Notes: generated by a model from the sequence alone, not told the origin. DNA of 64,000 nt from a virus (IMGVR_UViG_3300028833_002727); one strand, 5' to 3'. Positions 30,438-59,650 are shown, counted from the stretch's first letter. Made by a program: numbers and translations.

Positions 30438-31238
30438 ATGGGAAAAGTTAAAAAAGACAGTTTAGGTGACAGAATGAAAAGATACGAGGGTGTAAGCAAA
30501 AACACTCTTGTATCTCGTATGCCAGTAATTCTTAGATTGGATGGCTGTCACTTCCACACATTTACAAAAGGTTTTCAAAAACCATTTGATGATGTTTTAA
30601 TGAAATCAATGAAAGACACTATGAAGTATCTTTGTGAGAACATTCAGGGCTGTGTATTTGGTTACACTCAATCTGATGAAATCACATTGGTATTAGTGGA
30701 TTATCAGAACATCAATTCATCACCGTGGTTTGATAACGAGGTACAAAAAATGTGCTCTGTTGCATCATCTATGGCTGGTATGTTCTTTGCACGTACGTTT
30801 GCATACAACGTACTAATGTCAGAACTCAATGAAGATGATAAACTATTCAAGGTTTATAACAATGCAATTAACCGTGGTGCTTACTTCGATTGTAGAGCAT
30901 TTAACGTTCCACAGAGCGATGTTTGTAACTGTGTTCTATGGCGCCAGCAAGACGCAACAAGAAACTCAATACAAGCATTAGCACAAGCTAACTTTTCTCA
31001 AAAACAACTACATGGCTTGAGTTGTGATAAACTTCAAGATAAACTGTTTGTTGAGAAAGGCATTAACTGGAACAATTTGTCAACTGACAAGAAACGTGGT
31101 TCTGCATGTATTAAGCAGAAGTATTCATTCACTAACCAACATGGGGAGGAAACAATCAGAATGCGTTGGATTGTTGATGATGATATGCCTATTCTCACAC
31201 AAGATAGGGATTATATTGAGAAACTAATTTATTTTTAA
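30438..31238 (+). CDS. Thg1-like protein (tRNA-His guanylyltransferase family 3'-5' nucleotidyltransferase)
   Basis: VILRLDGCHFHTF, KPFDDVLMKSM and FGYTQSDEITLVL align with the Thg1 signatures VVVRLDGRNFHRF, KPND...LM and YGQSDEYSFVF. Confidence 0.8.
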   Translation: MGKVKKDSLGDRMKRYEGVSKNTLVSRMPVILRLDGCHFHTFTKGFQKPFDDVLMKSMKDTMKYLCENIQGCVFGYTQSDEITLVLVDYQNINSSPWFDNEVQKMCSVASSMAGMFFARTFAYNVLMSELNEDDKLFKVYNNAINRGAYFDCRAFNVPQSDVCNCVLWRQQDATRNSIQALAQANFSQKQLHGLSCDKLQDKLFVEKGINWNNLSTDKKRGSACIKQKYSFTNQHGEETIRMRWIVDDDMPILTQDRDYIEKLIYF

Positions 31239-37199: not shown

Positions 37200-37730
37200 C
37201 AAAAATCCAACACACCATTCCGTAAGTGGTTGAGGTTGATGTCTTTGTAGAGTATAGCGGTTACGGACGTGATTTTCTACATCTGGCTAAAGGCAATAAT
37301 ATAGTGAAACCTGGTTATCACGGCGCCTAGAGTGCGCAATTCGGGTTCAAATCCTGGCTATTGACAATAAGAGAGGCATACAGCAAAACAAAAAACTATT
37401 TTTTTAAAAACATTGAATTTGGGTTTCAAAAACGTTATAAAAAAGTGCCTCTTGTACTCAAGTATATATAGCCGCCACCCCCAAGTACAAGGGGCACACC
37501 AGACTTACATGGTTATCTCTTTTCCTGGAGAGATTGTAAAATAGGGCATTAGGAGCGAGTTAGTTGGATCAGAACTTATCTGATTAGAGAATTGCCCGCA
37601 GTCTGCGAACGTAAATAAGCAGTAATGGTAGATATGGGGAGCACTGAATTACGTAATAGATGTTTCATGAAACTATCTAAAAGTGACAAGCAAGCCACTT
37701 TAGCGTGTGATAAAACCGCACAGGGCGCCG

Positions 37731-38966
37731 ATAGTTGAGGGACAACAACTTTAAAAACCTCTATGGAGAAGTACAATTCATGGCAAAGTATAGACGGGGT
37801 TGAGGTGGTGCGCACTGTACTATAAAAAGAGTAAGGATAAGGAAAATGCGTAGCCTCACTTATAGTTGAAGGAAAACAACTTTAAAAAAGACAATAACCT
37901 ATGAATAATTAGGTGAGTTAAACCAGCTACACAAATGCTGTATGTGATAGTGATAAAATGCAGCCATGGAGGCTAACAAAAAGATTGCAAACTTTTTGAA
38001 TGCATTAATAACTTCCATGATTAAATAGTTGAAGGAAAACAACTTTAAAAACCAATATTAAACCACGAAAAAGACTAGAAGTTACAGCGTTGCTCCATTT
38101 TAGCCGAGGACGAAGCCGTGTGGGTCACTATTGAAATGAAGACTCTTTCCGGTGGGGAGAGTGATATTACTTTCACTAATGGAGGTGGGAGTGATAGGAT
38201 AGGCCAAAAACAGCACTATGTGGTTTATATTTAAAGTATTGCGCTGGTGATGAGAAGATACCAGTACCACAGGCCGTAGAAAGCAAAGAGAAATAATTGC
38301 GCAATAAAACTCTTGGGCGTACTACTGATAAGCGAAGATAAAGGTTAAAACTAGGCTGCTTCGGATACTTCAATATAGTTGAAGGAAAACAACTTAAATG
38401 AACCAAATTTAACTCCTATCGTCTAGTGGTTTAGGACATGCCGCGGTAAAGACATTGGTTCGAATCCAATTGGGAGTTCTTTGTGAAGAAAAACGGCTTA
38501 TAAAAAGCAACTTAGAAAAGTCGAGGAACTTCTGTTTATGCAATTTGACATTACGTCACCAGTCGATATTCGATGAGGCTCTGAATAGGTCGCACCTTAT
38601 AAGTAGGGGAATTGAGTACATAAACAGCGGGAGAAAGGTAAACTCGTGGGCTGGTTCGCTCTCCCAAATTTATAGTTGAAGGAAAACAACTCTAAAAACC
38701 CATACAGATGGAGTGAGAGATACTCGATTCGGTTGAAGGTGTCCTGCCGATAACAACGAGACATATCCTAAACATCGGGATAATTTTGATGTTCGGTTAG
38801 TTAGATACCGCTTGATAGGTGTACAATGTCAAGTTGCTAATCGTTAATAGGCCGACAGGTAATCTGTTCTTATTACGCGAGTTGCCTGAGTTCGAACACG
38901 CTTCTTCCGAACAGAACAGAAAAGTATCTTTTAATTATAGTTGAAGGAAACAACTTAAAAAATCCC
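37731..38966 (+). repeat. Six copies of the hairpin motif TAGTTGAAGGAAAACAACTTTAAAAA in an ORF-free structured region
   Basis: Copies at 37731-37759, 37861-37890, 38025-38053, 38375-38400, 38671-38700 and 38937-38966. The stem is AGTTG/CAACT with an 8-nt loop. Spacing is irregular (127-347 nt). Confidence 0.7.
38410..38477 (+). pseudogene. tRNA-like (Glu/Val-type body) with a disrupted anticodon arm
   Basis: Acceptor ACTCCTA/TGGGAGT. D-arm GTCTAGTGGTTTAGGAC. T-arm ATTGG-TTCGAAT-CCAAT. No foldable anticodon stem. Confidence 0.4.
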
Positions 38967-39542: not shown

Positions 39543-40829
39543 ACAACAAAAGATTACTTATTACTGATCTTCTACTATAAATTTTATAAGTGTTAGGATT
39601 GGAAGTGTCCATACTTAATGAGTGGTTGCCCACCGGATCTATTAACGCCCATTGGTAACAGATGGAAACGCAACTTAGTCGGATAAATGGAAAAAGAAAC
39701 TTTAAGTTCAATTTTATGTGAGTGTAACTGAAAAGGAATTGCATAAAATATATTTACCTTTGGTGTAAAAACACGCTTATATAATTTTTTTACGTATATT
39801 TAAAACGAAGAGAGACGTACAGCAAAACTCACACTTTATTGGAAAACAGCAAATTTTCTACCAAAAGCAAATTGTCTCTTGTAAATGCTTGAATACTTTT
39901 CATAAGCAACATATACGGAAGACGTACAGCAAAGCATTTTTAGGATAACACTTTTAATGTTAAATTCTTGTCTTCTGAACTACAGTTGGCAACTGACTTA
40001 TAGTTGCGGAGAAAATCGGGATGATAACCCGTTGACTGTTGTGTGTTTTCAACATGACGTGAACACTCGCTGAGGTTAGAATTTTTCCGCATAGGCTAAT
40101 CACCAGAAATTCAAATTTTTCAACTCCACCATTTCATTGGTGGACAAAGACACGAAACCCTAACACGGTACTAAATTCGTGACTGCCAGGTTATAAGGTT
40201 GCTCCTGACAAAAATAGTTCTTAGGTGAACGGTATGCCAATAAGCTTTTAATTAGCGCCTGAAGCAGACTTTCTTCGGTGGGTGAAAGTCAAACCTGGGT
40301 CGCGCCAGGATTGGTAGCAAATAATAACTTATGTGCCTGAATAAGCGGTAGACTGCTGCTAAAGGACGTATTGTTGTACTGAAAAGTACGCGGTGCGGTT
40401 AACGGGCATTACGAAGCATAAAGTTGAATTAGCCACGGTTGGCCAACCGTGAGTGACGTAAGAACAGGACAAATCGTGTTTTATGACTGAGGTCTGTATC
40501 CTGTTGGAGGTAATCATTCCTCCCACCCATTCAAACTAAGAGAGTTGCTAACTCTTAGGGGTGTGACTGAATAATGTGCGTAGTGTTTGGTTTTATAGGT
40601 AGTCAGGAATCCTATCATTTGTTATTACCTTTTATGTCTTATGTTGTATTATTCTTTTTTGTGAGATATAAACAACTGTCCCAAGACATTAGACTTGTGA
40701 AAGGCTGTAGTGTTTGTTTTATTAGTTTTCTGTCAAAGTGCAGTAACCTTGACGTCAGGACAAAACATGAAAACTAATTTTTATCGTGGCAGAGTGAAAC
40801 GGATATGTCGATAAGCATTTCGGCAGACA

Positions 40830-40881
40830 TCATCAGAGGCTCATAACCTCTGGATAGTGGGTTCGACTCCCGCAGCCGCAA
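40830..40881 (+). other. Partial tRNA-like: anticodon arm (CAU), T-arm and 3' acceptor strand without a matching 5' half
   Basis: AGAGG-CTCATAA-CCTCT, GGATA, GTGGG-TTCGACT-CCCGC, AGCCGCA-A. No complementary TGCGGCT upstream. Confidence 0.3.
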
Positions 40882-40887
40882 CAATAT

Positions 40888-40961
40888 GATAGCGTAGCTC
40901 AACTGGTTAGAGTGCTGGCCTGTCACGCCAGTGGTTGCGGGTTCGAGTCCCGTCGCTATCG
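40888..40961 (+). tRNA. tRNA-Asp(GUC)
   Basis: GATAGCG/CGCTATC acceptor. CTGGC-CTGTCAC-GCCAG anticodon arm. Confidence 0.85.
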
Positions 40962-40998
40962 CTAAAGATAGACGTACAGCGAACAACTAACTCATTTG

Positions 40999-41082
40999 GG
41001 AACTATGGGTCGTGGGTTCGAGTCCCGCCCGCCCGACTAAATAACACAAATCGGGCGGTAGCTCAGTTGGCAGAGCAATAGT
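40999..41082 (+). other. Permuted tRNA locus 1. The 3' half (41002-41036) lies upstream of the 5' half (41052-41082).
   Basis: The 3' half is ACTAT-GGGTC-GTGGG-TTCGAGT-CCCGC-CCGCCCG-A. A 15-nt spacer follows. The 5' half is CGGGCGG-TA-GCTC-AGTTGGCA-GAGC-A-ATAGT. The acceptor strands are perfectly complementary and the anticodon-stem halves ATAGT/ACTAT are complementary. Leader ATAGAC is complementary to trailer GTCTAT. Confidence 0.45.
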
Positions 41083-41489
41083 AGAGAAAAAAATGTCTAT
41101 TGTAATTTTATGTTGTGTTATTTTCTTTTTGTAAATATGAACAACAGTGAGTAAACACTATAACATCTGGCGGAGAGGTGTGGATTTGTTCCACGTTTCC
41201 AGCGCGGTAACGCTCTAAAATTCCAGTAGCCCGTAGGTGAGCGGGTGAAGAGACTGTGGAGGGAAGAGGCAACGAACCCTGTGAAACAGTAATATCATAA
41301 GCCAAATTTCGGTTGGTAGATAATCACCTTCCAGTATTGATGCAAACTTTGTAATAGGGTGAAACAATGTTACATCGGGCAACCCCGTTTGCGTTTCTAA
41401 GCGGCTAGGATGTAGGTTGACACTTGGTAATACGAGTGGGGCTACGGACACCGACAAGGCTTTTTGGTTGCTCATCAATACTTTTTAAT

Positions 41490-41564
41490 GGGGGATTAGC
41501 TCAGTCTGGCTAGAGCACCTGCTTTGCAAGCAGGGGGTCGTGGATTCGAATTCCACATCCTCCA
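41490..41564 (+). tRNA. tRNA-Ala(UGC)
   Basis: GGGGGAT...CCTGC-TTTGCAA-GCAGG...GTGGA-TTCGAAT-TCCAC-ATCCTCC-A. Confidence 0.85.
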
Positions 41565-41637
41565 CTTTTGTAAAAAAAAAGTTCGAAATAAGTATTTTTC
41601 CACACTAATGAAGTATTTATATATAAACAATAAAAAT

Positions 41638-42552
41638 ATGTATATAGATATTTCAACAGAAGAAAAAAAACAAGAATTTATACTACTTTTAAGTAGGTTT
41701 AAACGGAAAGGGGATATATTCAAATATTATCAAGTATCAGACAACACAAAAAATACAAGATATTTAAACAATATATTACAAACATTAGGTATAAACAATG
41801 AGTTTTTTTCCAAAAAAAGAAAAGAAAAGAAATTTTGTTTAAAGTGTGGTAAAGAATTAAAATATGGACAACATAAATTTTGTAGTAACAGTTGTTCGGC
41901 ATCTTACAACAATAAAAATAGAGAATATAGTGACGAAGTAAAACAAAAAATACGTGTTGGTGTTTTATTGTCTATGGGTATAACAGATATTGAAACATAT
42001 AGAAATACCAGCACAGAAAAAAAATGTGGGTACTGTGGTAGAATGTTCACTACAGCAAAAAAACATCAAAAATTTTGTTGTCAAGAATGTTCAAGAAGAA
42101 ACAGAAGATTACAAGAAATAAAAAATAAGGACGAAAGGGATATATATAAAAGTCAAACTAAATTCAATTTTAGTTTAAATGCTTATCCAGATGAGTTTGA
42201 TTTTTCCTTAATCAAAGAAAATGGTTGGTATCAAGCGACAAATCATGGTGATAACTTACGTGGCATTAGCAGAGATCATATGTTTTCAGTAGATGAAGGA
42301 TATAAACAAAATATAGACCCGTATTTAATTTCTCATCCAGCAAATTGTAAATTGATGAAACATGAAGACAACTTTAAAAAGAAAACAGAATGTTCAATAA
42401 CACTTAATGAACTAAAACAAAGAGTTAATGATTGGAATAAAAAATACGGAGTATATGAAAATAAAATAGATTATACAAAATTAGAAAAATTTAAGGAAAT
42501 GCAGGGTTCGAATCCCGCATCCTCCACAACTAATAATAATGTTAAACAATAA
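41638..42552 (+). CDS. HNH homing endonuclease with N-terminal CxxC zinc-finger repeats
   Basis: GISRDHMFSVDEGY...NCKLMKHEDN HNH motif. The start is placed after the conserved leader GAAGTATTTATATATAAAC. The 3' end of the ORF overlaps a degenerate copy of the tRNA-Ala 3' end. Confidence 0.7.
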   Translation: MYIDISTEEKKQEFILLLSRFKRKGDIFKYYQVSDNTKNTRYLNNILQTLGINNEFFSKKRKEKKFCLKCGKELKYGQHKFCSNSCSASYNNKNREYSDEVKQKIRVGVLLSMGITDIETYRNTSTEKKCGYCGRMFTTAKKHQKFCCQECSRRNRRLQEIKNKDERDIYKSQTKFNFSLNAYPDEFDFSLIKENGWYQATNHGDNLRGISRDHMFSVDEGYKQNIDPYLISHPANCKLMKHEDNFKKKTECSITLNELKQRVNDWNKKYGVYENKIDYTKLEKFKEMQGSNPASSTTNNNVKQ

Positions 42553-42682
42553 AAAACGAAACAACTATGAAAAATCACATTCATTGGTAGATTCGTAGAA
42601 GTCGTTCTCCTAATGTGTTTTTGTTAATCTAAGGAGGTAACAAAAATCAAAATTAAATTAACAAAAAATAAACACATTAAAA

Positions 42683-43090
42683 ATGGAGAATAAAACTATG
42701 AAAACTACAGAACAAATCAATCAAATTAAAACATTAAAACGCTTAATTGCGGAAATGGTAGCAGAACACAAGGCTACTAAATTAAACGAAGGACGCTACG
42801 GTAAATTCCGTAACGAAAGAGAACGCCTATTCATTGCATATACGGCTTACTATATGCTTCGTCATGGCATCGAAGACTTTGATGCATACATCGAGTCAGT
42901 AATGAACAAATTAAAACCAGAAAAACAAAATAAGGAGTATCCTTACCAGTTCTTCGGTGTTGAATTAGAGTCATTACCTCGTTGGAATAGATGGGGAAGC
43001 GTTAAGAATGCAGTAACCCATTGCATCGAATGCTTGGACAAAGTTATTGCTAAGGAGCAAGAAAATGCAGTTGAAGATGGAAACGAGTAA
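42683..43090 (+). CDS. Hypothetical protein
   Basis: ORF with a GGAG ribosome-binding site. Confidence 0.4.
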   Translation: MENKTMKTTEQINQIKTLKRLIAEMVAEHKATKLNEGRYGKFRNERERLFIAYTAYYMLRHGIEDFDAYIESVMNKLKPEKQNKEYPYQFFGVELESLPRWNRWGSVKNAVTHCIECLDKVIAKEQENAVEDGNE

Positions 43091-43376
43091 CCGCCTTTAC
43101 ATCCTCGTAAGTGAGGATTTAGCACCAATCTACGGCGCTGTACAGGGCGGGCACGCAATAGCGCAGTGGATGTTGGAACATTCCGACAATCTCTACTGGA
43201 AAAACGAAACTGTTGTGTATTTAAGTTGTAATGTTGAAAAGATGAAGTATCTACTTGAATGGGATGATATATCCATATTCAGAGAACCTGATCTTAATAA
43301 CAAACTTACAGCAATCGCAGTAGTTGGTAATCCAAGAAATGAACGAATGTTCAAGAAATTGAGACTTCTTCAATGA
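43065..43376 (+). CDS. Pth2-like peptidyl-tRNA hydrolase (start uncertain: 43047, 43065 or 43077)
   Basis: YILVSEDLAPIYGAVQGGHAIAQW resembles the PTH2 GKxAAQxxHAA core. The C-terminal KKLRLLQ resembles the PTH2 tail. Confidence 0.5.
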   Translation: MQLKMETSNRLYILVSEDLAPIYGAVQGGHAIAQWMLEHSDNLYWKNETVVYLSCNVEKMKYLLEWDDISIFREPDLNNKLTAIAVVGNPRNERMFKKLRLLQ

Positions 43377-43418
43377 ATGTCATAAAAAATTTGGGCGTTG
43401 AAATATACGCCTGAATAT

Positions 43419-43490
43419 GACCTATTAGTTCAACGATAGAACGGTACCCTCTAAAAGTATGCGTCGCGGGTTTGACTCCTGCATAGGTCA
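43419..43490 (+). tRNA. Putative amber-suppressor tRNA(CUA)
   Basis: Acceptor GACCTAT/ATAGGTC. D-stem GTTC/GAAC. Anticodon arm GTACC-CTCTAAA-AGTAT with U33 and A37 in place and a C31-A39 mismatch. T-arm GCGGG-TTTGACT-CCTGC. Confidence 0.45.
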
Positions 43491-43655
43491 CAAATGTTTA
43501 TATGTAGTAGTTACATGTTTAGAACGATCAACAAAACACAACATATGAAAGCATATGGGATAAAATGGATTCTGCTATTACACCGCAGTTCATAAGTATG
43601 TTTACCGTGGAGAATCGGGAATCGGTAATGTAACTATTAACTTGTAATCATAGTT

Positions 43656-43740
43656 GCCACATTGGGACAGTTGGTCGACTCCGCTTGACTTGTAATCAAG
43701 ATGCTTATGCGCGCCGTCGGTTCGAATCCGGCATGTGGCT
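43656..43740 (+). tRNA. tRNA with anticodon UGU (Thr) but an 85-nt type-II-like body (15-nt variable region)
   Basis: GCCACAT/ATGTGGC. CTTGA-CTTGTAA-TCAAG. GTCGG-TTCGAAT-CCGGC. Confidence 0.5.
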
Positions 43741-44461
43741 CTAAATAAGGTTGACGGTAGATGTCATTAAATCATTCTACAGAACTAAATTTACTGAGTT
43801 CAGTACTCCTCACGGGGAGTTCAAAGTAAAAAGGGGTGCCGAGTCCTCTTGAGCCTTATGACAGTTTACGTTCAATATTCAGAGGGGAGTAGCTTTGAGC
43901 GAAATTAAAACATCTGACCCTTATTTGGTAGTTGGACGTTATCCTATATTGTCCGTCTGATGTTCATGCGCAGAACAGTCATTCGTAAAAATCGTAATCG
44001 AACACCTCTTTAGTTCGAAATGAAGGGTTGTGGTAAATCTAATGCTTAGTGTTACGGATAAGATAGCAACGCAGTATGCTAACAAGACTATGCTGCTCAT
44101 TTTTTGGACGCGGTTGTTTTATGGTTAAAAAACATCCTAGCCTCTTCGGAGGTTGAACCAATAGTATCACCCAACTCGCAGAGTTAGGACGCTAAACCAG
44201 TGGCGCGCCAAAGATATTCGTCAGGCGCTGAGCCTTTCGCCAGAAGGCAGTGGTGATATTTTTAATAGTCGCTCATCCGACTTATTTTCCTGGTTTTGTA
44301 TAAATCAGGTGGTGGCCAAGCCGTGGGTTTTTTACCAAATACCCTGCATCGTTTTTTGGGTTGGAGTTAAGCATTGGCAAGATTGTGATGCTCATTAGTG
44401 AATTCGGTTAAAGTCCGAAAGCTTCATCCCCCTTACAAAACGGTGTGAACTAATAAATTTT

Positions 44462-44532
44462 TGCCTTCTAGTATATCGGTATTACACCTGACTCTGACTC
44501 AGAAGAGCGGGGTTCGATTCCTCGGAGGGCGA
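44462..44532 (+). tRNA. tRNA-Gln(CUG), weak stems
   Basis: TGCCTTC/GAGGGCG with two G-U pairs. Anticodon loop CTCTGAC. T-arm CGGGG-TTCGATT-CCTCG. Confidence 0.45.
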
Positions 44533-44726
44533 CAAAGATAACATCAAGAAACGACGATACCAAAGTGGTTAGGATAGCGATGTAAGACGTGATACTCTAT
44601 ATGGTATTGAGAATGGGAGTAGTAAGCGTTATCCGTGGTGTTATCTAACATTGTCCCATAGTGTAACTGGCTAACACCTGATAAATTATGGGATGTTTTT
44701 ATGAAAAATCATAATTTTCAATATAT

Positions 44727-44812
44727 TGCCTCTTGGTGTAACTGGCTAGCACGTCAGATTTTGATTCTGGAGGGTCCGAAAGGCATTGGGGGTTCGAATC
44801 CCTCAGAGGCAA
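44727..44812 (+). tRNA. tRNA with anticodon UUG (Gln) and a long 18-nt variable region (86 nt)
   Basis: TGCCTCT/AGAGGCA. GTGT-AACTGGCTA-GCAC. TCAGA-TTTTGAT-TCTGG. GGGGG-TTCGAAT-CCCTC. Confidence 0.5.
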
Positions 44813-45120
44813 CAATAGTAGAACGTATAGTTTAATGATAGCGCGCTAAAACATGTAGAACAACGGCGTAGTAAGTCGTAGGTATAGGTTTGATTCCTTT
44901 TGCGCTCTGAATCAGTCACTGATGTTGTCAAGACTCGTTCTTGGCTGGGATATAAAAGCATTACACTGGTAAAATTTTTCTGAAAAAAACACAAAATATC
45001 ATATAAAAGTTGTATATTTAACTTGAAGAGAGACTTACAGCACAATTTAAGATTTCCACAATCTAAACCAAACGTCTCTTGACAAAAAATAAATACAATC
45101 AAAAAAAACAATCACAAGTA

Positions 45121-45651
45121 ATGCCTAAAAAGGGATTAGTAATTAACTTAATTGGCGGGCCTGGTAGTGGTAAGTCAACCACAATGGCTGGAGTTTTCTA
45201 TAAACTCAAAAAAAACGGTGTAAATTGCGAGATTGCTACGGAGTTTACCAAAGAAAAAGTCTGGGAAGAAGATTATAGGATGCTGGACGATCAGTTGTAC
45301 ATCATTGCTAAACAATTCCACAGAATTAGTCGTTTAATCGGAAAAGTAGATGTAGTGATTATGGATACATCATTGCTAAGTTCCGTAATATACGATAAAA
45401 GCGGTAGTCAAAACCTGAAAGGCTTGTGTATTGAGTGTTTCAATCAGTTTGATAACATGGTATTCTTCATCGACAGAAGTGACATCAAGTATCATACAGA
45501 GGGAAGAGTAGAGTCACAAGAAAAAGCAAAGGAAATTGACGAAAGTTACAAAAAACTCATGGAAGAGAATAATATACCATACACAGTTGTAACTAATGAA
45601 AATTGTGTTGATGTTATTTTCCGACAATTGAAAGAAAAAGGATATATTTAA
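45121..45651 (+). CDS. P-loop NTPase/kinase (AAA_28/NadR-RNK-like or nucleotide/polynucleotide kinase-like)
   Basis: Walker A INLIGGPGSGKST and Walker-B-like VVIMDTSLLS. The ATG at 45121 is preferred over the TTG at 45079. Confidence 0.5.
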   Translation: MPKKGLVINLIGGPGSGKSTTMAGVFYKLKKNGVNCEIATEFTKEKVWEEDYRMLDDQLYIIAKQFHRISRLIGKVDVVIMDTSLLSSVIYDKSGSQNLKGLCIECFNQFDNMVFFIDRSDIKYHTEGRVESQEKAKEIDESYKKLMEENNIPYTVVTNENCVDVIFRQLKEKGYI

Positions 45652-45757
45652 GGAGTTCTGCCTTAAATGTTCAAAAATAACCTATAAGAGAGACTTACAG
45701 CAAATTTCTACTTTATTTCTGCGTTAATTAGAAAAAAAAAGAATGTCTCTTGTATTT

Positions 45758-45848
45758 GGAGGGTTGGCAGAGTTGGTCGATTGCGTCGGTCTTGAAAACC
45801 GAAGATCCCGTAAGGGGTCCGGGGGTTCGAATCCCTCACCCTCCGCCA
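45758..45848 (+). tRNA. tRNA-Ser(UGA) with encoded CCA
   Basis: GGAGGGT/ACCCTCC. TCGGT-CTTGAAA-ACCGA. Long variable arm. GGGGG-TTCGAAT-CCCTC. G73 then CCA. Confidence 0.85.
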
Positions 45849-46163
45849 AAATATGTATAAGTCGACTATCGGGTTAGAGATGATATGAAGCGCAGTGAGA
45901 GACTGCAACTAAACGGGTTCGACTCCCGCTTGGGCACAATTGCAATAGGAATCATTCTTATACTTAACTAAGCCTATTCCTGCTCGTAGGTATCCGAGTG
46001 AGCAGAGGGGGTCGAGCTGCTGACAGCCATACGTATAAGTAGCAGGTACTTCTTACCTTAAAGAGGCTTTTCTCTGGGTTCAGGGGCGATTTATTTGTTG
46101 TTCGTGAACAATAAATAGCATGTTGGATGCTTCAGGTGGAGGGATACCACCATCAATTTTTAT

Positions 46164-46238
46164 CTGGGTATAGTTCAGTCCGGCTAGAACACTACATTTG
46201 GGATGTAGGGGTCGCAGGTTCGAATCCTGCTATCCAGA
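46164..46238 (+). tRNA. tRNA-Pro(UGG)
   Basis: CTGGGTA/TATCCAG. CTACA-TTTGGGA-TGTAG. GCAGG-TTCGAAT-CCTGC. Confidence 0.8.
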
Positions 46239-46255
46239 CAATGTAAAAATTGAAT

Positions 46256-46906
46256 ATGGGAAAAAGTAGACCTTATACGTGGAAATGTGATGTTTGTGGT
46301 GAAGTTTTTAAAACTAGAAAATTATTATATTCCCATTGGAATGAAAAACCAGAACACCATATTATTAAAACATCTGCAACTTATAAAGGTGAATATTATT
46401 GTAAATATTGTAATAAATTTTGTGATCAGTTAAATTCGTTACATTTACATGAAAAACATTGTATTTTAAATCCAAATCGCATTGATGGCGCATCAAAAGG
46501 TAGAACAATGACAGATGAGTTTAAGAAAAAACAATCTGAAAGAATGAAAGAACGCCATAAAAATGGGACAGCTGTTTCATTAGCACATCTAAGAAGTAAA
46601 GAAAAACCGTCATATCCAGAGCAGTGGCTAATGGAAGTAATAAAAAATGAAAATATTAATTCAGAGTATATTAGAGAATATAAATTTCACACATTTTCTT
46701 TAGATTTTTATTGGGAGAAAAAGAAAAAAGTTATTGAAATGGATGGTAGATTTCATAAAATTTCTGAATATCAAAAAGATTGTGATAAAAGGAAAGACGA
46801 ACAACTTAAAAAAGATGGAATAGATGAAATGAGAATTGATTGGGAATATTGTTATAAACATCCAAAAGAAGTAATTAAAAAAATAAAAGATTTTATTGGA
46901 GAGTAA
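46256..46906 (+). CDS. Homing-endonuclease-like protein with two C2H2 zinc fingers and a C-terminal DUF559/Vsr-like PD-(D/E)xK domain
   Basis: C2H2 fingers CDVCGEVFKTRKLLYSHWNEKPEHH and CKYCNKFCDQLNSLHLHEKH. LDFYWEKKKKVIEMDGRFH...DEMRIDWEY is Vsr-like. The stop overlaps the tRNA-Ser(GCU) start. Confidence 0.55.
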   Translation: MGKSRPYTWKCDVCGEVFKTRKLLYSHWNEKPEHHIIKTSATYKGEYYCKYCNKFCDQLNSLHLHEKHCILNPNRIDGASKGRTMTDEFKKKQSERMKERHKNGTAVSLAHLRSKEKPSYPEQWLMEVIKNENINSEYIREYKFHTFSLDFYWEKKKKVIEMDGRFHKISEYQKDCDKRKDEQLKKDGIDEMRIDWEYCYKHPKEVIKKIKDFIGE

Positions 46907-46985
46907 TGCTTGATGGTGATAGCGGCAACCTGCTAAGTTGTGCGCACCTGAAAAATGGTGTCTGGTTCGATTCCAGTGCTCTCCG
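46898..46985 (+). tRNA. tRNA-Ser(GCU)
   Basis: GGAGAGT/GCTCTCC. GCAAC-CTGCTAA-GTTGT. Long variable arm CACC...GGTG. TTCGATT T-loop. Confidence 0.8.
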
Positions 46986-48079
46986 CCTTTTCAAAGAGCC
47001 AATTTGAAGAGTGTTTCTTAATGATTATTTATCGTTAAAATAATCATGTGACTCCATTGTTTCAAAATGAATCAATTCGTGGCTGGCTACGGTTACCAGA
47101 ACCCTTTTCACTTGCAGGTTAAAGTATATGTTTGTGGGTAGAACAAAAAACCCTCATTTTGGTATACTTTGTTGGCTCAAAGTATACTTTCTAAAAAACA
47201 GTGGCTTGGCTGCATACCATAAGAACTGCTCCGAGTCCGATTTTATAAATGTCTAAGAAAGGTATCGGTACGAGTGGGGAGAGCCATGAGCACAATGACT
47301 GCTATACGCTGCACAACGTCACCGGACGATAAGCACTGAGCCTAACGGTACACACTAAGGATAATAGTCGAGTACTATCAACTCTCTAATGGTGTGTGAA
47401 GCTCTTATGCGTTGCTCGAAGAATAGACAATTTGCAATGTGGCGCATAAGGTTATAGCCAGATACCAATGAAAGTACCGAAGACATTTTTACTCTAATCT
47501 CAAACCTTGGGGTCTTGTTTTATTTCTGAATCCCCATGCATATAGTAATTATCGGATGTCGACTGAAAGAGATTACGATTATGGTTCGTCCCTGAGATTA
47601 CGTTATAGTTACAATTATTCGTTCACACTTATCGAAGGCTTACCTAGGGTTTTTGGGTAAAAGTGAATTCATAGAGAGCCGAATTGTAATTTTTATACAA
47701 CACCGAATCCATTCATGTGATATTCGATATAACTGAGAACTAATCACGTTTTCCTGAATGGCGTTGCTACTCAATGGTATGGAGGCATACTGAGTACCGT
47801 AGGCGTTACGAAAACATAGCCTGGCTTTCATTTTTAAGGTGTTGTTACTTTTACAGAGGATGCGAAACATCTAAGTCATAGGCGTACGCTGCTGAGATTA
47901 CATCAATGATTGCAGATTCAACTAAACGATTAGTAGCACCTGATGAGTAGGCGTCGTAACTCATCTTAACTGTTTTTTAGTCAATCAATATGTCCACGTC
48001 TTTCGGGACGTTAAATGTTGTTTACCAATGGTAAGGAACAATGGTTTCCAACGCTGAACCAGTTAATCAGCGTTTAGAT

Positions 48080-48151
48080 GGGTTTGTTAGTTTAACGGTA
48101 GAATGAGACGTTGTGGCCGTCAAGACAATGGTTCGACTCCATTACAGACCC
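48080..48151 (+). tRNA. tRNA-His(GUG) with a genomically encoded G-1 (48080) and C73
   Basis: G-GGTTTGT/ACAGACC-C. AGACG-TTGTGGC-CGTCA. AATGG-TTCGACT-CCATT. Confidence 0.65.
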
Positions 48152-48292
48152 CCCACTATAAAAATAATAAATAATAAATGGTGTTAATTATTTTGTGAAC
48201 CTTAAAATTTTAAAGAAAAAAAAACAAAAAAAATGAGTTCGAAACGTTATTTTTTCACTTTTAAAAATATTTATATATAAACATATATTGAT

Positions 48293-49057
48293 ATGAAAGT
48301 AAGTGATTTAAAAAAAGAAGAAGTAATTCACGCGTTACAACAAAGTAAAACAAAATTAGATTTTTTACATATTTTTGGTTATAAAAATAATGGAAGTGGT
48401 TATCGTTTTGTTGAAAATGTTATTAAATATTTTAAAATTAATATATACGATTATTTAGATAAAAAAATCACAGAAGACGAATATAATAAACACCCATCGT
48501 GCTGTAAATATTGCGGTAAAAAATTGAATTATAGTAAACGTAACAACAAATTCTGTTCGAAATCATGTTCTGCTTCGTATAATAATTCAACTAGGGTTCA
48601 TTCTATAACCTCAAGATTAAAAACTTCAAAAGCATTATCAGGGGAGAATGCAACGAAAGAAATTAAAGAATGTAAATTGTGCGGTAGAACATTTATAGGT
48701 GATAAAGATTTTTGTTCTGGTAAATGTAGAAAAACATTCGAAAATAATGATAAACTTGATAGATGGTTGAATGGCGAAAATTTTTTACGTGGAGCAACAC
48801 AAGTGCCTACTTTTGTGCGTAAATATTTAATGAATAAATATAATTGTCAATGTCAAAGATGTGGGTGGGGAGAAGAAAATCCATACACACATACGGTACA
48901 ATTAGAAATACATCATATTGATGGTGATTGCACAAATAATAAAAAAGAAAATTTACAATTATTATGCCCGAATTGTCATTCACTGACTGAAAATTTTGGT
49001 TCATTGAATAAAATGTCACATAGATTTCATAGGAAAAGAGTGACATTACAAAATTAA
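48293..49057 (+). CDS. HNH homing endonuclease
   Basis: CQCQRCGW...LEIHHIDGDCTNNKKENLQLLCPNCH. Conserved leader upstream. A tRNA follows 5 nt downstream. Confidence 0.8.
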   Translation: MKVSDLKKEEVIHALQQSKTKLDFLHIFGYKNNGSGYRFVENVIKYFKINIYDYLDKKITEDEYNKHPSCCKYCGKKLNYSKRNNKFCSKSCSASYNNSTRVHSITSRLKTSKALSGENATKEIKECKLCGRTFIGDKDFCSGKCRKTFENNDKLDRWLNGENFLRGATQVPTFVRKYLMNKYNCQCQRCGWGEENPYTHTVQLEIHHIDGDCTNNKKENLQLLCPNCHSLTENFGSLNKMSHRFHRKRVTLQN

Positions 49058-49061
49058 ATAA

Positions 49062-49136
49062 CGGCTCGTAGCTCAGCCTGGTTAGAGCACCACACTGATA
49101 ATGTGGGGGTCGCAGGTTCAAATCCTGCCGAGCCGA
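49062..49136 (+). tRNA. tRNA-Ile(GAU)
   Basis: CGGCTCG/CGAGCCG. CCACA-CTGATAA-TGTGG. GCAGG-TTCAAAT-CCTGC. Confidence 0.85.
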
Positions 49137-49146
49137 CAAAATATAT

Positions 49147-49220
49147 GACAAGGTGCCTGAGTGGACTAAAGGGGCGCTCTGCAAAAGCGTTGTTCGTCGG
49201 TTCGAATCCGACCCTTGTCT
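49147..49220 (+). tRNA. tRNA-Cys(GCA)
   Basis: GACAAGG/CCTTGTC. GCGCT-CTGCAAA-AGCGT. GTCGG-TTCGAAT-CCGAC. Confidence 0.85.
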
Positions 49221-49394
49221 CAAAAAAAAATGTAACTTTTTGAAAATAACAGATATTTATTATAAAAAGGAAATAAAATGGGTAAATACGGAAAAGATAT
49301 GAAGAAGTTTGTCGGCTATTTTGGTAAATGGCTTAATCTATTTTCGTGTTCACAAGTTAAAAGGTGATACTTTATTTGGATCAGAGATATTCAA

Positions 49395-49433
49395 ACCTTG
49401 ATACTGTGAACAAACGCGTATCAAGGTTTTTTT
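49395..49433 (+). terminator. Rho-independent terminator
   Basis: ACCTTGATA...TATCAAGGT stem followed by TTTTTTT. Confidence 0.55.
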
Positions 49434-49440
49434 ATTGCAA

Positions 49441-49478
49441 AATATTTGGTTATTTGAAATAAAAGTAGTATCTTTGCA
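49441..49478 (+). promoter_or_regulatory. Promoter repeat copy 3
   Basis: TTTG at 49445-49448 and TAtcTTTG at 49469-49476. Confidence 0.55.
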
Positions 49479-49490
49479 TCGTGAAATAAT

Positions 49491-49575
49491 GACCTCGTAG
49501 CTCAGCTGGTTTGCGTATGCTTAGAGCACCTGCCTTTTAAGCAGGGGGTCGTGGGTTCGAATCCCACCGGGGTCA
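49491..49575 (+). tRNA. tRNA-Lys(UUU) variant with a ~10-nt insertion in the D-loop (85 nt). It is a possible pseudogene or variant.
   Basis: GACCTCG/CGGGGTC. D-loop AGCTGGTTTGCGTATGCTTA. CCTGC-CTTTTAA-GCAGG. GTGGG-TTCGAAT-CCCAC. Confidence 0.5.
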
Positions 49576-49738
49576 CAAGAATCAATTCGGTGGATGGTAA
49601 CATGTACATTGGGCGGTTGTACACTATGTGTCGACGGGAGTGCATGACTTGGTTCTTTTTTTGAAAATTAAAATAAAAAACGTATATTTATAAACGAAGA
49701 GAGACTTACAGCAAAACAACATTATCTATCAATCCATG

Positions 49739-49825
49739 TTAAGGAAGGGGTCGCGGGTTCAAGTCCCGTCATCGTCTCAAAAAAAAAATGTATGACGATG
49801 TAGCTCAGTTGGTTAGAGCACTTAA
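49739..49825 (+). other. Permuted tRNA locus 2. The 3' half (49739-49777) lies upstream of the 5' half (49794-49825).
   Basis: The 3' half is TTAAG-(9 nt)-GCGGG-TTCAAGT-CCCGT-CATCGTC-T. A 16-nt spacer follows. The 5' half is GACGATG-TA-GCTC-AGTTGGTTA-GAGC-A-CTTAA. The acceptor and anticodon-stem halves are complementary. It sits inside a unit bounded by AGAGAC...GTCTCT. Confidence 0.45.
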
Positions 49826-49962
49826 AAATAGAAACCGTCTCTTGTATTTTTTGAAAAACAAAACAAACAAACAGAAACAATGATGAAGACTAAGAAACAT
49901 ATGAAGAAAACGTAATATCGGTGACAAATTGTGTCACTGGTTACTATTCAACGTGCCCGTGG

Positions 49963-56155: not shown

Positions 56156-56372
56156 CAAATAATTACGCAATCCATCGCGCCCATTCGATAGAAGTAAGTG
56201 GTGAGGAAGTTCAGGACACTCATTTGGGAGTGAAAGTCTAAGTATAGGTGGTTACCCAAATTATTGCCTCCAGGGTAAGACGAATAGTTAAATGATGGAT
56301 ATAGGTACAGAATCCTGGCTATTACGTAATTATTTTATTACAACAATAATAATAAACAAAAAAACAAAAGAC

Positions 56373-59010: not shown

Positions 59011-59259
59011 TTGGTAAAAATGACATTAAAAGAAATAGTACAAGGCACTGCTGATTTAAGTTGCGTACTTTCTGGTGGTATTGCTGTATATATATTAACA
59101 GACGTTAACGGAAAGAAATATCAAATTGAAATTGATTTGTCAGATAGGCATGATGTTGGCGAAACTGCCACGTTTGCTCTTCACTACGATAAAGCGATTT
59201 ATTTGATGCGTTGGATTAGACGTGCTATGGAACATGATAAACTAATTGCATTAGATTAA
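59011..59259 (+). CDS. Hypothetical protein
   Basis: ORF. Confidence 0.4.
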   Translation: MVKMTLKEIVQGTADLSCVLSGGIAVYILTDVNGKKYQIEIDLSDRHDVGETATFALHYDKAIYLMRWIRRAMEHDKLIALD

Positions 59260-59623
59260 ATGGGGCTGTTTGGCTTTGACTGGAAGATTGATACGATTGT
59301 AAGCATGTAGAGAATGAGAAATCTCTTTAAAAGACTTGACAACACAATAAATGGCGAAAGAACTTACGCTCTTGCTGCTTAATCGAAGCACAGTAGATTA
59401 ACTTTTTCAGATGCAAGGCATTTGAGCAAGACATCACTCCAAGCCGAGTCTGTGGGCTTAATGGATATAGTGGTGCTGGAATACATAGAATAGATGTTAC
59501 ATGCTGTGATGTAATGTTGAAGTTTTAGCAGATAAGGTGACTTTTGATGGTTTGAGTCGTATAGTCGCTCGAAAATCTAAATCAAACTAAACATGTAGAA
59601 AGCGAAAATATTACTTGCAACAC

Positions 59624-59650
59624 ACGGGTTCGACTCCCGTCAGCTCCACC
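59624..59650 (+). other. Isolated tRNA 3' fragment (T-arm plus acceptor 3' strand plus CC)
   Basis: ACGGG-TTCGACT-CCCGT-CAGCTCC-A-CC. No complementary 5' half in the window. Confidence 0.4.

What the first reader, a model, noticed from the sequence alone, without database searches (positions are those of the whole stretch)
39790..49852. Family of small units bounded by a conserved 5' box GTATATTTAAAACGAAGAGAGAC(T/G)TACAGCAAAAC and a 3' GTCTCTTG
- The 5' box occurs at 39792, 45013, 45670 and 49678, with degenerate copies at 37365 and 40968.
- The TATATTTA part looks like a -7 promoter box.
- The AGAGAC part is complementary to the GTCTCT found 40-150 nt downstream (39885, 45076, 45746, 49837), predicting a long-range terminal stem.
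- One unit encloses permuted tRNA locus 2. Another unit ends directly at tRNA-Ser(UGA).
This looks like a set of discrete small-RNA genes or processing cassettes of unknown function.
Basis: seen in the sequence. Interest (0 to 1): 0.65.

Follow-up and report, generated by a model that had tools for sequence, protein, structure and literature searches.

The report
Phage Y-RNA-like small RNA family
The repeated boxes mark seven small RNA genes that share a closing stem and an ACAGCAA motif around tRNA-like inserts. The same module sits beside a Ro60-like protein gene in many unrelated phages, so these are probably the unrecognised "Y RNA" partners of that protein.

Summary
The window holds seven + strand units, not six, between 37371 and 49844. 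Each has a 7-bp stem that joins its two ends, an invariant single-stranded N-[U/C/A]ACAGCAA just after the 5' strand, a G after the 3' strand, and a variable insert. The stem covaries among the paralogs and across phages.

It is present at only three units.

Two inserts, in U4 and U7, are circularly permuted tRNA-like domains. They match the tRNA-like core of Rfam YrlA at 37-38 bits, below its threshold.

The same module lies directly beside, and on the strand of, a DUF2828/DUF7788 gene in about 30 phage loci. Their hosts span Bacteroidota, Bacillota, Pseudomonadota, Campylobacterota and Actinomycetota. An AlphaFold model of that protein matches Ro60/TROVE structures over its full length.

A relative of this phage carries the gene and a unit on one contig. 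The window itself holds no such gene.

No Rfam family covers the module, and its motif differs from the canonical CGAA Ro-binding motif. My best reading is a new variant of Y RNAs. Binding and function are inferred, not shown.

The parts
37371..37454 (+). Unit U1. Stem GAGAGGC/GCCTCTT, core A-TACAGCAAAAC. The insert has a hairpin with loop TTTGGGT. The unit starts 6 nt after tRNA-Ser(AGA), which spans 37294-37365.
   Evidence: Ortholog in L075.
39794..39802 (+). GTATATTTA promoter-like box, 7 nt upstream of U2.
   Evidence: 10 copies in the window against 2.3 expected, also upstream of protein genes. Conserved in L075-L078.
39810..39881 (+). Unit U2. Stem GAGAGAC/GTCTCTT, core G-TACAGCAAAAC, small hairpin insert.
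39917..39977 (+). Stem GGAAGAC/GTCTTCT carries two compensatory pairs. Core G-TACAGCAAAGC.
   Evidence: (fold z = -2.7)
40967..41102 (+). Unit U4. Stem GATAGAC/GTCTATT, core G-TACAGCGAAC. It encloses permuted tRNA-like locus 1 and starts 5 nt after tRNA-Asp (40888-40962).
41004..41080 (+). tRNA-like domain of U4: T arm, acceptor stem closed by a 16-18-nt loop, D arm. It is preceded by TTTGGGA, a tRNA-Pro(UGG)-like anticodon loop.
   Evidence: Rfam YrlA RF02553 model positions 23-85, 38.2 bits (gathering score 69), E = 2e-7 in the local search. Acceptor and T stems covary in orthologs.
45012..45020 (+). GTATATTTA promoter-like box, 7 nt upstream of U5.
45028..45081 (+). Unit U5. Stem GAGAGAC/GTCTCTT, core T-TACAGCACAA. 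It lies 39 nt upstream of the AAA_28 P-loop gene (45121-45651).
   Evidence: It is the only unit short enough to score with model R1 (23.5 bits).
45688..45752 (+). Unit U6. Stem GAGAGAC/GTCTCTT, core T-TACAGCAAAT, no promoter box. It ends 6 nt before tRNA-Ser(UGA), which starts at 45758.
49682..49690 (+). GTATATTTA promoter-like box, 8 nt upstream of U7.
49699..49844 (+). Unit U7. Stem GAGAGAC/GTCTCTT, core T-TACAGCAAAAC. It encloses permuted tRNA-like locus 2.
49745..49825 (+). tRNA-like domain of U7: T arm, 7-bp acceptor stem GACGATG/CATCGTC closed by a 17-18-nt A-rich loop, D arm.
   Evidence: Rfam YrlA model positions 23-87, 37.1 bits (gathering score 69), E = 5e-7 in the local search. The acceptor stem covaries in L076 and L077.

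Best explanation
The seven units are genes for small non-coding RNAs of one modular family.

Shown:
- The 5' and 3' ends of each RNA pair into a 7-bp stem.
- Immediately 3' of the 5' strand lies an invariant unpaired N-[U/C/A]ACAGCAA, and a G follows the 3' strand. I call this the 'handle'.
- The handle closes a variable insert. The insert can be a small hairpin, an anticodon-arm-like hairpin, a T arm, a circularly permuted tRNA-like domain (U4 and U7), or, in other phages, a whole tRNA.

Inferred:
- The handle is the binding site for a phage-encoded Ro60-fold protein of the DUF2828 + DUF7788/vWA type. This would parallel the way Y RNAs bind Ro60/Rsr through a conserved motif in the stem formed by their ends.
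- The variable insert then presents tRNA-like surfaces on the ribonucleoprotein. These could recruit, or act as decoys for, tRNA-binding enzymes or nucleases during infection.
- U2, U5 and U7 are probably transcribed from their own GTATATTTA promoter-like box.
- U1, U4 and U6 are probably released from tRNA co-transcripts by RNase P and RNase Z. U3, which lies 35 nt downstream of U2, is probably co-transcribed with U2.
- In this phage the protein gene should lie outside the window, about 28 kb before its start.
For: 1. The stem is real and under selection.
- All 7 window units pair 7 of 7, with compensatory changes among the paralogs.
- Across 36 units, 5 of the 7 pairs show changes on both sides.
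- In an independent MAFFT/RNAalifold alignment of 14 tRNA-like units from four host phyla, the handle stem, T arm and acceptor hairpin all covary.

2. The module is linked to the protein gene.
- A scan for the DNA motif alone found L041, with two tandem units abutting a DUF2828/DUF7788 gene.
- The same scan found L043, where a divergent homolog of the gene lies 2.4 kb downstream (tblastn 2e-25).
- In 20 loci fetched through the protein, the core occurs 77 times on the gene strand and 13 times on the other strand.
- There, 38 of 41 cores within 200 nt upstream or 1 kb downstream of the gene have the stem. In 48 unrelated loci 22 of 94 do.
- Units also flank the gene in Lak-B2, E. coli phage mio, mycobacteriophage Faith1, Listeria LMTA-34, Campylobacter CP39, Staphylococcus S-CoN_Ph4, Bacillus PK-3 and Sinorhizobium phiN3.

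3. The protein has the Ro60 fold.
- A profile of 18 homologs has Ro60 as its best PDB hit (E = 0.0015).
- The AlphaFold2 model (pLDDT 84) gives 12 top Foldseek hits that are all Ro60/TROVE/Rsr, over 416-512 (mostly about 480) columns (E from 2e-7 to 1e-5). The next hits cover only the vWA domain.
- PHROG 850 is named 'RNA-binding protein'. GenBank records call the gene 'Ro-like RNA binding protein'.

4. The inserts resemble Y RNA. U4 and U7 match the YrlA tRNA-like core, and so does L061.

5. Lineage. IMG/VR contig 3300021256_000110 carries a tail protein 87% identical to window 10465-13440. It also carries the Ro60-like gene with a unit upstream.

6. Literature.
- Y RNAs lie next to Ro60 genes on the same strand (PMC4201824).
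- A canonical phage Ro60 binds two Y-like RNAs encoded upstream of its gene (PMC12135203).
- Bas63 gp130, a Felixounavirus Ro60-like protein, counters the Ppl defence. Its RNA partner was only guessed at (10.1101/2024.10.10.617714).
Against: - No DUF2828 or Ro60-like gene lies in the 64-kb window. tblastn, an HMM search and the Pfam scans all found none. None lies in the roughly 14 kb of flanks or the 20-kb related loci either. For this phage the partner is inferred from a relative.
- The handle lacks the canonical Ro-binding motif, GNCGAAN0-1G or CGAA.
- The YrlA hits are below the gathering score and cover only the tRNA-like core.
- There is no transcript or binding data.
- Some DUF2828 loci (L054, L057, L060) show no unit within the DNA held.
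- The units used for the pair counts were selected for pairing. That count is therefore partly circular. The background rate of a chance 7-bp stem under my criterion is 23%.
Confidence: 0.7

Rival explanations
1. The units are cis-acting leader or processing cassettes. On this reading the stem plus ACAGCAA is a signal in polycistronic tRNA and mRNA precursors. It could be an operator for translational autoregulation of the Ro60-like mRNA, or a leader-trailer duplex that directs or delays RNase P/Z processing. It would not be the body of a stable trans-acting RNA.
For: - In L052 and L053 the 3' strand of the unit upstream of the gene overlaps its ATG (GTCTTATGG).
- U5 sits 39 nt upstream of the AAA_28 gene, and this arrangement is kept in relatives.
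- Some units enclose a whole tRNA or tRNA-like gene in normal order: L061 tRNA-Pro at 63.6 bits, L053 and L055 tRNA-His-like, L064. In those the handle acts as a paired leader and trailer.
- U1, U4 and U6 abut tRNAs.
Against: - Tandem arrays of 2-4 units lie downstream of the gene with no ORF to regulate.
- Five window units contain no tRNA to process.
- The architecture (end-to-end stem, conserved 5'-side motif, variable tRNA-like module) and the synteny with a Ro60-fold gene are those of Y RNAs.
- This rival is partly compatible with the best explanation, because the protein could bind both kinds of RNA.
Confidence: 0.15
2. U4 and U7 are true circularly permuted tRNA genes. On this reading the terminal stem brings the transcript ends together for cleavage and ligation. 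That makes a circular intermediate from which RNase P and Z release a functional tRNA. The other units would be decayed copies.
For: - The 3' half precedes the 5' half in U4 and U7, with 7-bp acceptor stems and good T and D arms.
- U4 carries TTTGGGA, a tRNA-Pro(UGG) anticodon loop, next to a 5-bp ACTAT/ATAGT stem. This is conserved in orthologs.
- Two related units encode CCA after the acceptor 3' strand: L045 GCCA and L070_3992 ACCA.
- The window encodes RNA end-repair candidates: Thg1, and an AAA_28 P-loop protein.
Against: - The same handle, with the same invariant ACAGCAA, closes units that have no tRNA parts (5 of 7 here) and units with unpermuted tRNAs. It is therefore not an intron or junction remnant.
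- By inspection the stem is a plain 7-bp helix with no bulge-helix-bulge.
- U7 has no canonical 7-nt anticodon loop.
- Normal tRNA-Pro(UGG) and tRNA-Trp genes already exist in the array.
- No ligase or splicing endonuclease was found in the window.
- The YrlA precedent shows that such permuted tRNA mimics exist without being tRNAs (PMC4201824).
Confidence: 0.06
3. The units are a dispersed DNA-level repeat: a miniature mobile element, a homing-endonuclease target, or a promoter/terminator cassette. The inverted ends would be terminal inverted repeats, not an RNA stem.
For: - The units are short and bounded by inverted repeats.
- They are scattered through a region rich in HNH and other homing-type endonuclease ORFs.
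- Three carry a promoter-like box.
- U7 is followed by a T run.
Against: - Pairing is kept while the sequence changes, among paralogs and across phyla (GAGAGAC, AAGGCAC, AGACCAA, TGGACGC and others). This is the signature of RNA, not of a transposase or nuclease site.
- The strand bias is strict: 77 cores against 13, and 7 units against 0 in the window.
- The conserved motif is asymmetric and unpaired.
- I saw no target-site duplications.
- The stems are too short, and T runs too irregular, for intrinsic terminators.
Confidence: 0.04

Closest known systems
Bacterial and phage YrlA-type Y RNAs (Rfam RF02553; Chen et al. 2014, PMC4201824)
   Same: - They are small RNAs encoded next to a Ro60-fold gene on the same strand, often in several copies.
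- The 5' and 3' ends form a stem with a conserved motif on the 5' side.
- A second module is a tRNA mimic with T arm, D arm and an acceptor stem closed by a loop. U4 and U7 align to YrlA model positions 23-87.
   Different: - The conserved motif is N-[U/C/A]ACAGCAA, placed after a freely covarying 7-bp stem, not GNCGAAN0-1G.
- No unit reaches the Rfam gathering score.
- The partner is the DUF2828/DUF7788 clade, not a Pfam TROVE protein. The 2014 survey covered only TROVE-annotated genomes.
- The acceptor loops are long (8-18 nt, sometimes encoding CCA).
- Many units carry no tRNA-like domain, and some carry a whole tRNA.
Thermus phage phiLo Ro60 with Yrl1 and Yrl2 (PMC12135203; PDB 9KOP, 9L5Y)
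   Same: - It is a phage-encoded Ro60-fold protein with Y-like RNA genes just upstream of its gene.
- Each RNA has an end-to-end stem flanking a loop that holds the conserved motif.
- 9KOP and 9L5Y are the best structural matches of the DUF2828 model.
   Different: - phiLo Ro60 is a canonical TROVE protein and its RNAs carry the CGAA motif.
- Sequence identity to the DUF2828 model is only about 14%.
- Binding has been shown for phiLo but not here.
Bas63 (Felixounavirus) gp130, a Ro60-like counter-defence protein (preprint 10.1101/2024.10.10.617714)
   Same: - It belongs to the same protein family as the vWFA/DUF2828 gene of phage mio, which sits directly upstream of the tRNA array.
- The authors proposed that some annotated tRNAs there might be Y RNAs.
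   Different: - No RNA partner was identified in that work.
- In mio the candidate RNAs are three unannotated units lying between the tRNAs: L080 5454, 6037 and 6124. They are not the annotated tRNAs.
Circularly permuted tRNA genes (Cyanidioschyzon merolae type) and two-piece permuted tmRNA genes
   Same: In U4 and U7 the T-arm/acceptor 3' half is encoded upstream of the acceptor 5'/D-arm half. There are weak Rfam tmRNA_permuted hits of 9.7-14.4 bits.
   Different: - There is no bulge-helix-bulge junction.
- The shared handle also occurs on units with no tRNA content.
- There is no evidence of circularisation, and no mRNA-like reading frame.

Membership tests
Y RNA / YrlA (Ro60-associated ncRNA) | Encoded within a few kb of a Ro60-fold protein gene, on the same strand | tested here: met
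   Met for the RNA family. About 30 loci have units within 200 nt upstream or 1 kb downstream of the DUF2828 gene. The protein has the Ro60 fold by Foldseek. For the window itself the gene is not within the 64 kb. A relative with an 87% identical tail protein has both on one contig.
Y RNA / YrlA (Ro60-associated ncRNA) | Stem formed by the 5' and 3' ends of the RNA | tested here: met
   A 7-bp stem is present in all 7 units. There are compensatory changes among paralogs and across phyla. The true transcript ends are unmapped.
Y RNA / YrlA (Ro60-associated ncRNA) | Canonical Ro-binding motif (GGUCCGA in animals; GNCGAAN0-1G or CGAA in bacteria and phage phiLo) in the 5' strand or bulge | tested here: not met
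   The conserved motif is N-[U/C/A]ACAGCAA. No CGAA is conserved at that position.
Y RNA / YrlA (Ro60-associated ncRNA) | tRNA-like domain (T arm, D arm, closed acceptor stem) in at least one RNA per genome | tested here: met
   U4 and U7 align to YrlA model positions 23-87. The consensus fold of 14 such units shows these arms.
Y RNA / YrlA (Ro60-associated ncRNA) | Reaches the Rfam RF02553 gathering score (69 bits) | tested here: not met
   Scores are 38.2, 37.1 and 30.3 bits, and only the central domain aligns.
Y RNA / YrlA (Ro60-associated ncRNA) | Physical binding to the Ro60 homolog | not testable with these tools
   Needs RIP/CLIP or gel-shift assays.
Circularly permuted tRNA gene | 3' half upstream of 5' half, with an intervening linker at the acceptor ends | tested here: met
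   Met in U4 and U7 only.
Circularly permuted tRNA gene | Precursor termini form a bulge-helix-bulge (or other defined splice junction) that restores a normal anticodon arm | tested here: not met
   The terminal helix is a plain 7-bp stem plus an ACAGCAA loop. It is shared with units that have no tRNA parts. U7 lacks a canonical anticodon loop.
Bacteroidota-type promoter (-7 box TAnnTTTG) | -7 element at a fixed short distance upstream of the transcript start, recurring before many genes | tested here: inconclusive
   GTATATTTA occurs 10 times against 2.3 expected. It lies in intergenic positions before genes on both strands and 7-8 nt before U2, U5 and U7. The last base is A, not G. No transcription start data exist. 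The -33 element was not examined.
Miniature inverted-repeat mobile element | Terminal inverted repeats of conserved sequence, with target-site duplications | tested here: not met
   The arms covary rather than being conserved, and the strand bias is strict. I noted no duplications in the flanks.

The most novel reading that the evidence does not exclude
The family is a modular 'tRNA display' system. One Ro60-like ring protein is loaded, through a universal ACAGCAA handle, with a set of RNAs. These RNAs present whole tRNAs, opened or permuted tRNA bodies, and isolated anticodon arms, notably UUUGGGA (Pro-like) and GUG (His-like) loops.

The resulting particles would work in one of two ways. They could act as decoys or sensors against host defences that target tRNAs or other nucleic acids, which would explain why Bas63 gp130 counters Ppl. 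Or they could act as a dedicated chaperone and repair platform for phage tRNAs, together with Thg1, RtcB and kinase-like genes.

The permuted units may be cut by RNase P and Z into two-piece, CCA-ended tRNA-like molecules held together by the handle.
Probability: 0.2. Interest if true: 0.85.

Novelty: new variant of a known kind. Interest (0 to 1): 0.72.

Why it matters
Ro60-like DUF2828/vWA genes occur in at least 707 deposited phage genomes. These include Felix O1-like coliphages, Listeria P100-like phages, Staphylococcus, Campylobacter and Bacillus phages, cluster L mycobacteriophages and Lak megaphages. The same search that gave P0001 found over 2,000 metagenomic homologs. One member has been reported to counter a bacterial defence system. 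Its RNA partner has not been identified in any paper I could search.

A simple, recognisable RNA module next to these genes gives that partner a sequence definition, which makes the system directly testable in model phages. It would extend Y RNAs to a second binding motif and a second Ro60 clade. It would explain many 'empty' gaps and dubious tiny ORFs in phage tRNA regions. It would also reinterpret 'permuted tRNA genes' in phage tRNA arrays as tRNA mimics.

Tried and rejected
The box is two fused elements.
- **Exact 16-mer scan of IMG/VR**. 51 loci matched, and about 45 were chance hits inside coding sequence. Only L041, L043 and L045 were real.
- **Covariance model R1 from handle-only pseudo-sequences.** It cannot bridge 40-130-nt inserts and recovered only U5 with significance. 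I used a core-plus-stem scan with controls instead.
- **Rfam.** Gathering and E-value modes on the window, on U4 and U7, and on L061, L079, L080, L081 and L082 found no family covering the handle.
- **Looking for the Ro60-like gene in the window.**
  - tblastn, HMM and Pfam searches of the window were all negative.
  - Near-identical contigs gave 10 kb upstream and 3.8 kb downstream, also negative.
  - Matching contig lengths in two homolog tables failed.
  - The link was finally made through a shared IMG/VR contig.
- **Thg1 look-up by exact sequence:** not on record.
- **AAA_28 protein in IMG/VR:** no relatives.
- **A second ACAGCAAA inside the U2 hairpin loop** is not conserved in orthologs, so I dismissed it.
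- **An inner helix directly stacked on the handle** is not consistent between units.
- **Supplementary tables of Chen et al. 2014** are not held.

Full report
**1. What is in the window**

The window comes from a large phage. A near-identical 161-kb metagenomic contig exists. The window holds tail genes, a Thg1-like gene at 30438-31238 and a TonB-dependent receptor-like gene. Positions 37-60 kb form a + strand array of 33 tRNAs and a tmRNA, interspersed with HNH-type endonuclease ORFs and long non-coding stretches.

The motif is real. TACAGC with the shared upstream context occurs seven times, always on the + strand. Each copy is preceded by a 7-nt segment and one base. A perfect complement of that segment follows 38-130 nt downstream, and then a G. 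The unit coordinates are:
- U1 37371-37454
- U2 39810-39881
- U3 39917-39977
- U4 40967-41102
- U5 45028-45081
- U6 45688-45752
- U7 49699-49844

On the - strand none of 7 similar cores has a stem. A relaxed scan gave only shuffle-level noise beyond these seven. The minimum-energy fold of every unit contains the terminal stem.

**2.

- The 35-nt '5' box' matches only once within three mismatches, because it joins two elements.
- GTATATTTA occurs 10 times in the window (2.3 expected). It also lies in front of ordinary genes on both strands, and precedes only U2, U5 and U7 by 7-8 nt. It is a general promoter-like box and not part of the RNA module.
- The two 'degenerate' copies, U1 and U4, are complete units. 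Their stems carry compensatory changes: GAGAGGC/GCCTCTT and GATAGAC/GTCTATT. U3 has GGAAGAC/GTCTTCT.
- Both 'permuted tRNA' loci sit inside units (U4 and U7).

**3. Rfam**

No Rfam 15 family matches the shared module. The inserts of U4 and U7 match the tRNA-like core of YrlA (RF02553) at 38.2 and 37.1 bits. That core is a short stem, T arm, acceptor stem closed by a loop, and D arm, covering model positions 23-87. The gathering score is 69. The YrlA terminal region, which holds the Ro-binding site, does not align.

**4. Relatives found through the DNA motif**

An exact-pattern scan of IMG/VR gave mostly chance hits in coding sequence. Three loci were genuine:
- L043: units next to tRNAs.
- L045: a unit with a permuted tRNA-like insert that even encodes GCCA after the acceptor 3' strand.
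- L041: two tandem units, the second overlapping the start codon of a 430-aa ORF.

That ORF is a DUF2828 + DUF7788 protein.

**5. Linkage to the protein gene**

Using that protein as a query gave 23 viral loci at 41-100% identity. Almost all carry one to four units immediately upstream, or in tandem immediately downstream, of the gene and on its strand.

I then selected candidates by the 8-nt core alone, in 20 loci totalling 235 kb:
- The core occurs 77 times on the gene strand and 13 times on the other strand.
- 38 of 41 cores within 200 nt upstream or 1 kb downstream of the gene have a 7-bp closing stem.
- In 48 unrelated loci (463 kb) only 22 of 94 cores do.

L043 was found by DNA alone. 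It has a divergent homolog of the gene 2.4 kb downstream of its units (tblastn 2e-25).

The protein is found by tblastn in 707 deposited phage genomes. I fetched nine of them. Eight show clear units beside the gene:
- Prevotella megaphage Lak-B2
- E. coli phage mio, a Felixounavirus. Its three units lie between annotated tRNAs just downstream of the 'vWFA protein'.
- Mycobacteriophage Faith1. Its three units fill the 369-nt gap after its 'Ro-like RNA binding protein'.
- Listeria phage LMTA-34
- Campylobacter phage CP39
- Staphylococcus phage S-CoN_Ph4
- Bacillus phage PK-3
- Sinorhizobium phage phiN3

Vibrio phage K567 is doubtful. Rfam finds nothing on the units in the four of these loci I scanned (Lak-B2, mio, Faith1, LMTA-34).

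**6. Consensus and covariation**

Across all these phages the invariant parts are ACAGC (usually ACAGCAA), the C-G pair that closes the stem next to the motif, and the G after the 3' strand. The other stem positions change freely while staying paired. Examples are GAGAGAC, GGAAGTC, AAGGCAC, AATGCTC, AGACCAA, TGGACGC and AGGAATC.

In 36 aligned handles, 5 of 7 pairs show changes on both sides. That count is partly circular, because the units were selected for pairing. An alignment made without reference to structure avoids this. It holds 14 tRNA-like units from phages of Bacteroidota, Bacillota, E. coli and Mycobacterium. It recovers the handle stem, T arm and acceptor hairpin, with compensatory changes in 15 of 19 predicted pairs.

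Close relatives of the window phage (L075-L078) keep every unit. In the orthologs of U4 and U7 the acceptor and T stems are wholly replaced by complementary alternatives, while the handle and the TTTGGGA element stay fixed.

**7. Inserts**

The inserts fall into recurring types:
- small hairpins;
- hairpins with a 7-nt anticodon-like loop;
- T arms alone;
- permuted tRNA-like domains;
- whole tRNA or tRNA-like sequences in normal order. Examples are L061 tRNA-Pro(UGG) at 63.6 bits, the L053 and L055 tRNA-His(GUG)-like inserts, and L064.

TTGGG, the core of the tRNA-Pro(UGG)-type loop UUUGGGA, occurs in 12 of 48 units against 1.6 expected. Sixteen of 48 units have a GTTCRANTC T loop.

**8. The protein has the Ro60 fold**

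- A profile of 18 homologs has Ro60 as its best PDB hits, over the whole vWA domain (9nen E = 0.0015; 1yvp E = 0.011).
- PHROG 850 is annotated 'RNA-binding protein'.
- An AlphaFold2 model has mean pLDDT 84.4 and pTM 0.77.
- Its 12 top Foldseek matches in the PDB are all Ro60/TROVE proteins. They are Thermus phage phiLo Ro60, human and Xenopus Ro60, and D. radiodurans Rsr. They align over 416-512 (mostly about 480) columns with E from 2e-7 to 1e-5.
- Every later hit covers only the roughly 200-residue vWA domain.

**9. What is already known**

- Y RNAs are encoded beside Ro60 genes on the same strand. They pair their ends into a stem carrying the Ro-binding motif. In bacteria they carry a tRNA-like module.
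- The bacterial motif is GNCGAAN0-1G. The survey that defined YrlA covered only TROVE-annotated genomes, including mycobacteriophages such as ET08 (PMC4201824).
- A canonical phage Ro60 (phiLo) binds two Y-like RNAs with a CGAA motif encoded upstream of its gene (PMC12135203).
- For the DUF2828 clade, a 2024 preprint noted that Bas63 gp130 resembles Ro60, lies upstream of the tRNA stretch and counters the Ppl defence. It only suggested that some annotated tRNAs might be Y RNAs.
- Full-text searches for DUF2828, for 'Ro-like' with tRNA-like, and for Ro60 with phage found no description of the ACAGCAA module.

**10. Does this phage have the protein?**

Not within the window, by tblastn, HMM and Pfam. 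Not within the flanks I could reach either.

IMG/VR contig 3300021256_000110 (63.6 kb) encodes a tail protein 87% identical to window 10465-13440 (L094). About 38 kb upstream on the same strand it encodes the Ro60-like gene with a unit in front (L056). By synteny the gene should lie about 28 kb before the window start. In larger phages the gene and the units can evidently be apart. L054, from a 356-kb contig, has the gene next to a Thg1 homolog and no unit in the 13 kb held.

**11. Interpretation**

Shown:
- a structured, strand-specific, covarying RNA module;
- its physical linkage to a Ro60-fold gene across five host phyla;
- tRNA-derived inserts.

Inferred:
- the handle binds the protein;
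- the RNAs are stable and act in trans;
- U2, U5 and U7 start at their own promoter, and the other units are released from co-transcripts (by tRNA processing for U1, U4 and U6);
- the particle acts on, or mimics, tRNAs.

The cis-regulatory and processing-cassette reading keeps some weight. Some units overlap the gene's start codon or wrap a whole tRNA. The true permuted-tRNA-gene reading and the DNA-repeat reading are poorly supported.

**12. Verdict**

This is a real and widespread RNA family, and I found no prior description of it. It works like Y RNA. It fails two membership tests for YrlA proper: the binding motif and the Rfam score. I classify it as a new variant of a known kind.

Noticed in passing
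window 37732-38692 (copies at 37732, 37863, 38026, 38376, 38673; a looser copy near 38938): A second repeat family. The box TAGTTGAAGGAAAACAACTT is a small AGTTG/CAACT hairpin. It occurs 5 times within 3 mismatches against 0.01 expected. It punctuates GC-richer non-coding segments of about 130-350 nt between tRNAs. It may mark the boundaries of another set of unknown structured RNAs.
   Followed up: partly
window about 41217-41322; L056 about 2950-3060; L075 about 10560-10660: A conserved non-coding element of about 105 nt (TAGCCCGTAGGTGAGCGGGTG...GATAATCACCT) is nearly identical in the window, in L056 and in L075. In L056 it lies just upstream of the unit and the Ro60-like gene. In L075 it lies just upstream of the U6 ortholog. 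It has no Rfam match.
   Followed up: partly
window 56159-56333: A sub-threshold match to archaeal RNase P RNA: RF00373, 44.4 bits against a gathering score of 84, E = 9e-10. The alignment spans model positions 1-288 but only 175 nt of sequence. It could be a minimal RNase P-like RNA inside the tRNA array.
   Followed up: no
window 41490-42530: tRNA-Ala (41490-41565) is followed by a zinc-ribbon endonuclease-like ORF (homologous to HNH-type ORFs; up to 42552). Inside the end of that ORF is a second copy of a tRNA 3' end (ggttcgaatcccgcatcctccaca, about 42507-42530). This looks like a homing-endonuclease insertion with a partial target duplication. L045 shows a tRNA split by an ORF-containing insert in the anticodon loop.
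   Followed up: no
window 30438-31238; L054 4485-5042; L053 7309-7378; L055 7419-7490: The phage encodes a Thg1-like tRNA-His guanylyltransferase (Pfam 1.5e-30). In L054 a Thg1 homolog lies just upstream of the Ro60-like gene. In L053 and L055 the unit right after that gene has a tRNA-His(GUG)-like insert. This hints at a functional link between Thg1, His-type mimics and the Ro60-like protein.
   Followed up: partly
units in the window (U1 about 37425, U4 about 40999) and 10 units in other loci: TTGGG, the core of the loop sequence UUUGGGA (the tRNA-Pro(UGG) anticodon loop), recurs in 12 of 48 units against 1.6 expected. A true tRNA-Pro is the first tRNA after the gene in phage mio. One also lies inside a unit in L061.
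   Followed up: partly
L082 2003-2554 (Listeria phage LMTA-34): A sub-threshold ROOL RNA match (82.7 bits against a gathering score of 99.1, E = 3.5e-15) lies 1 kb upstream of the Ro60-like gene. An RtcB 'tRNA-splicing ligase' gene lies 1.3 kb downstream.
   Followed up: no
L091 4201-4290 and 4420-4548; L080 6109-6339: Tiny annotated 'hypothetical protein' CDSs overlap the RNA units in Staphylococcus phage S-CoN_Ph4 and, on the opposite strand, in E. coli phage mio. They are probably annotation artefacts.
   Followed up: no
window 59262-59651: A full-length phage-encoded tmRNA (114 bits; tag GERTYALAA) lies at the end of the tRNA array. The ORF just upstream (59011-59259) is homologous to the ORF that precedes the unit and the Ro60-like gene in L055.
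   Followed up: no
window 40537-40625: A weak manA RNA match (RF01745, 24.6 bits against a gathering score of 55.2, E = 0.01) lies in the long non-coding stretch between U3 and tRNA-Met.
   Followed up: no
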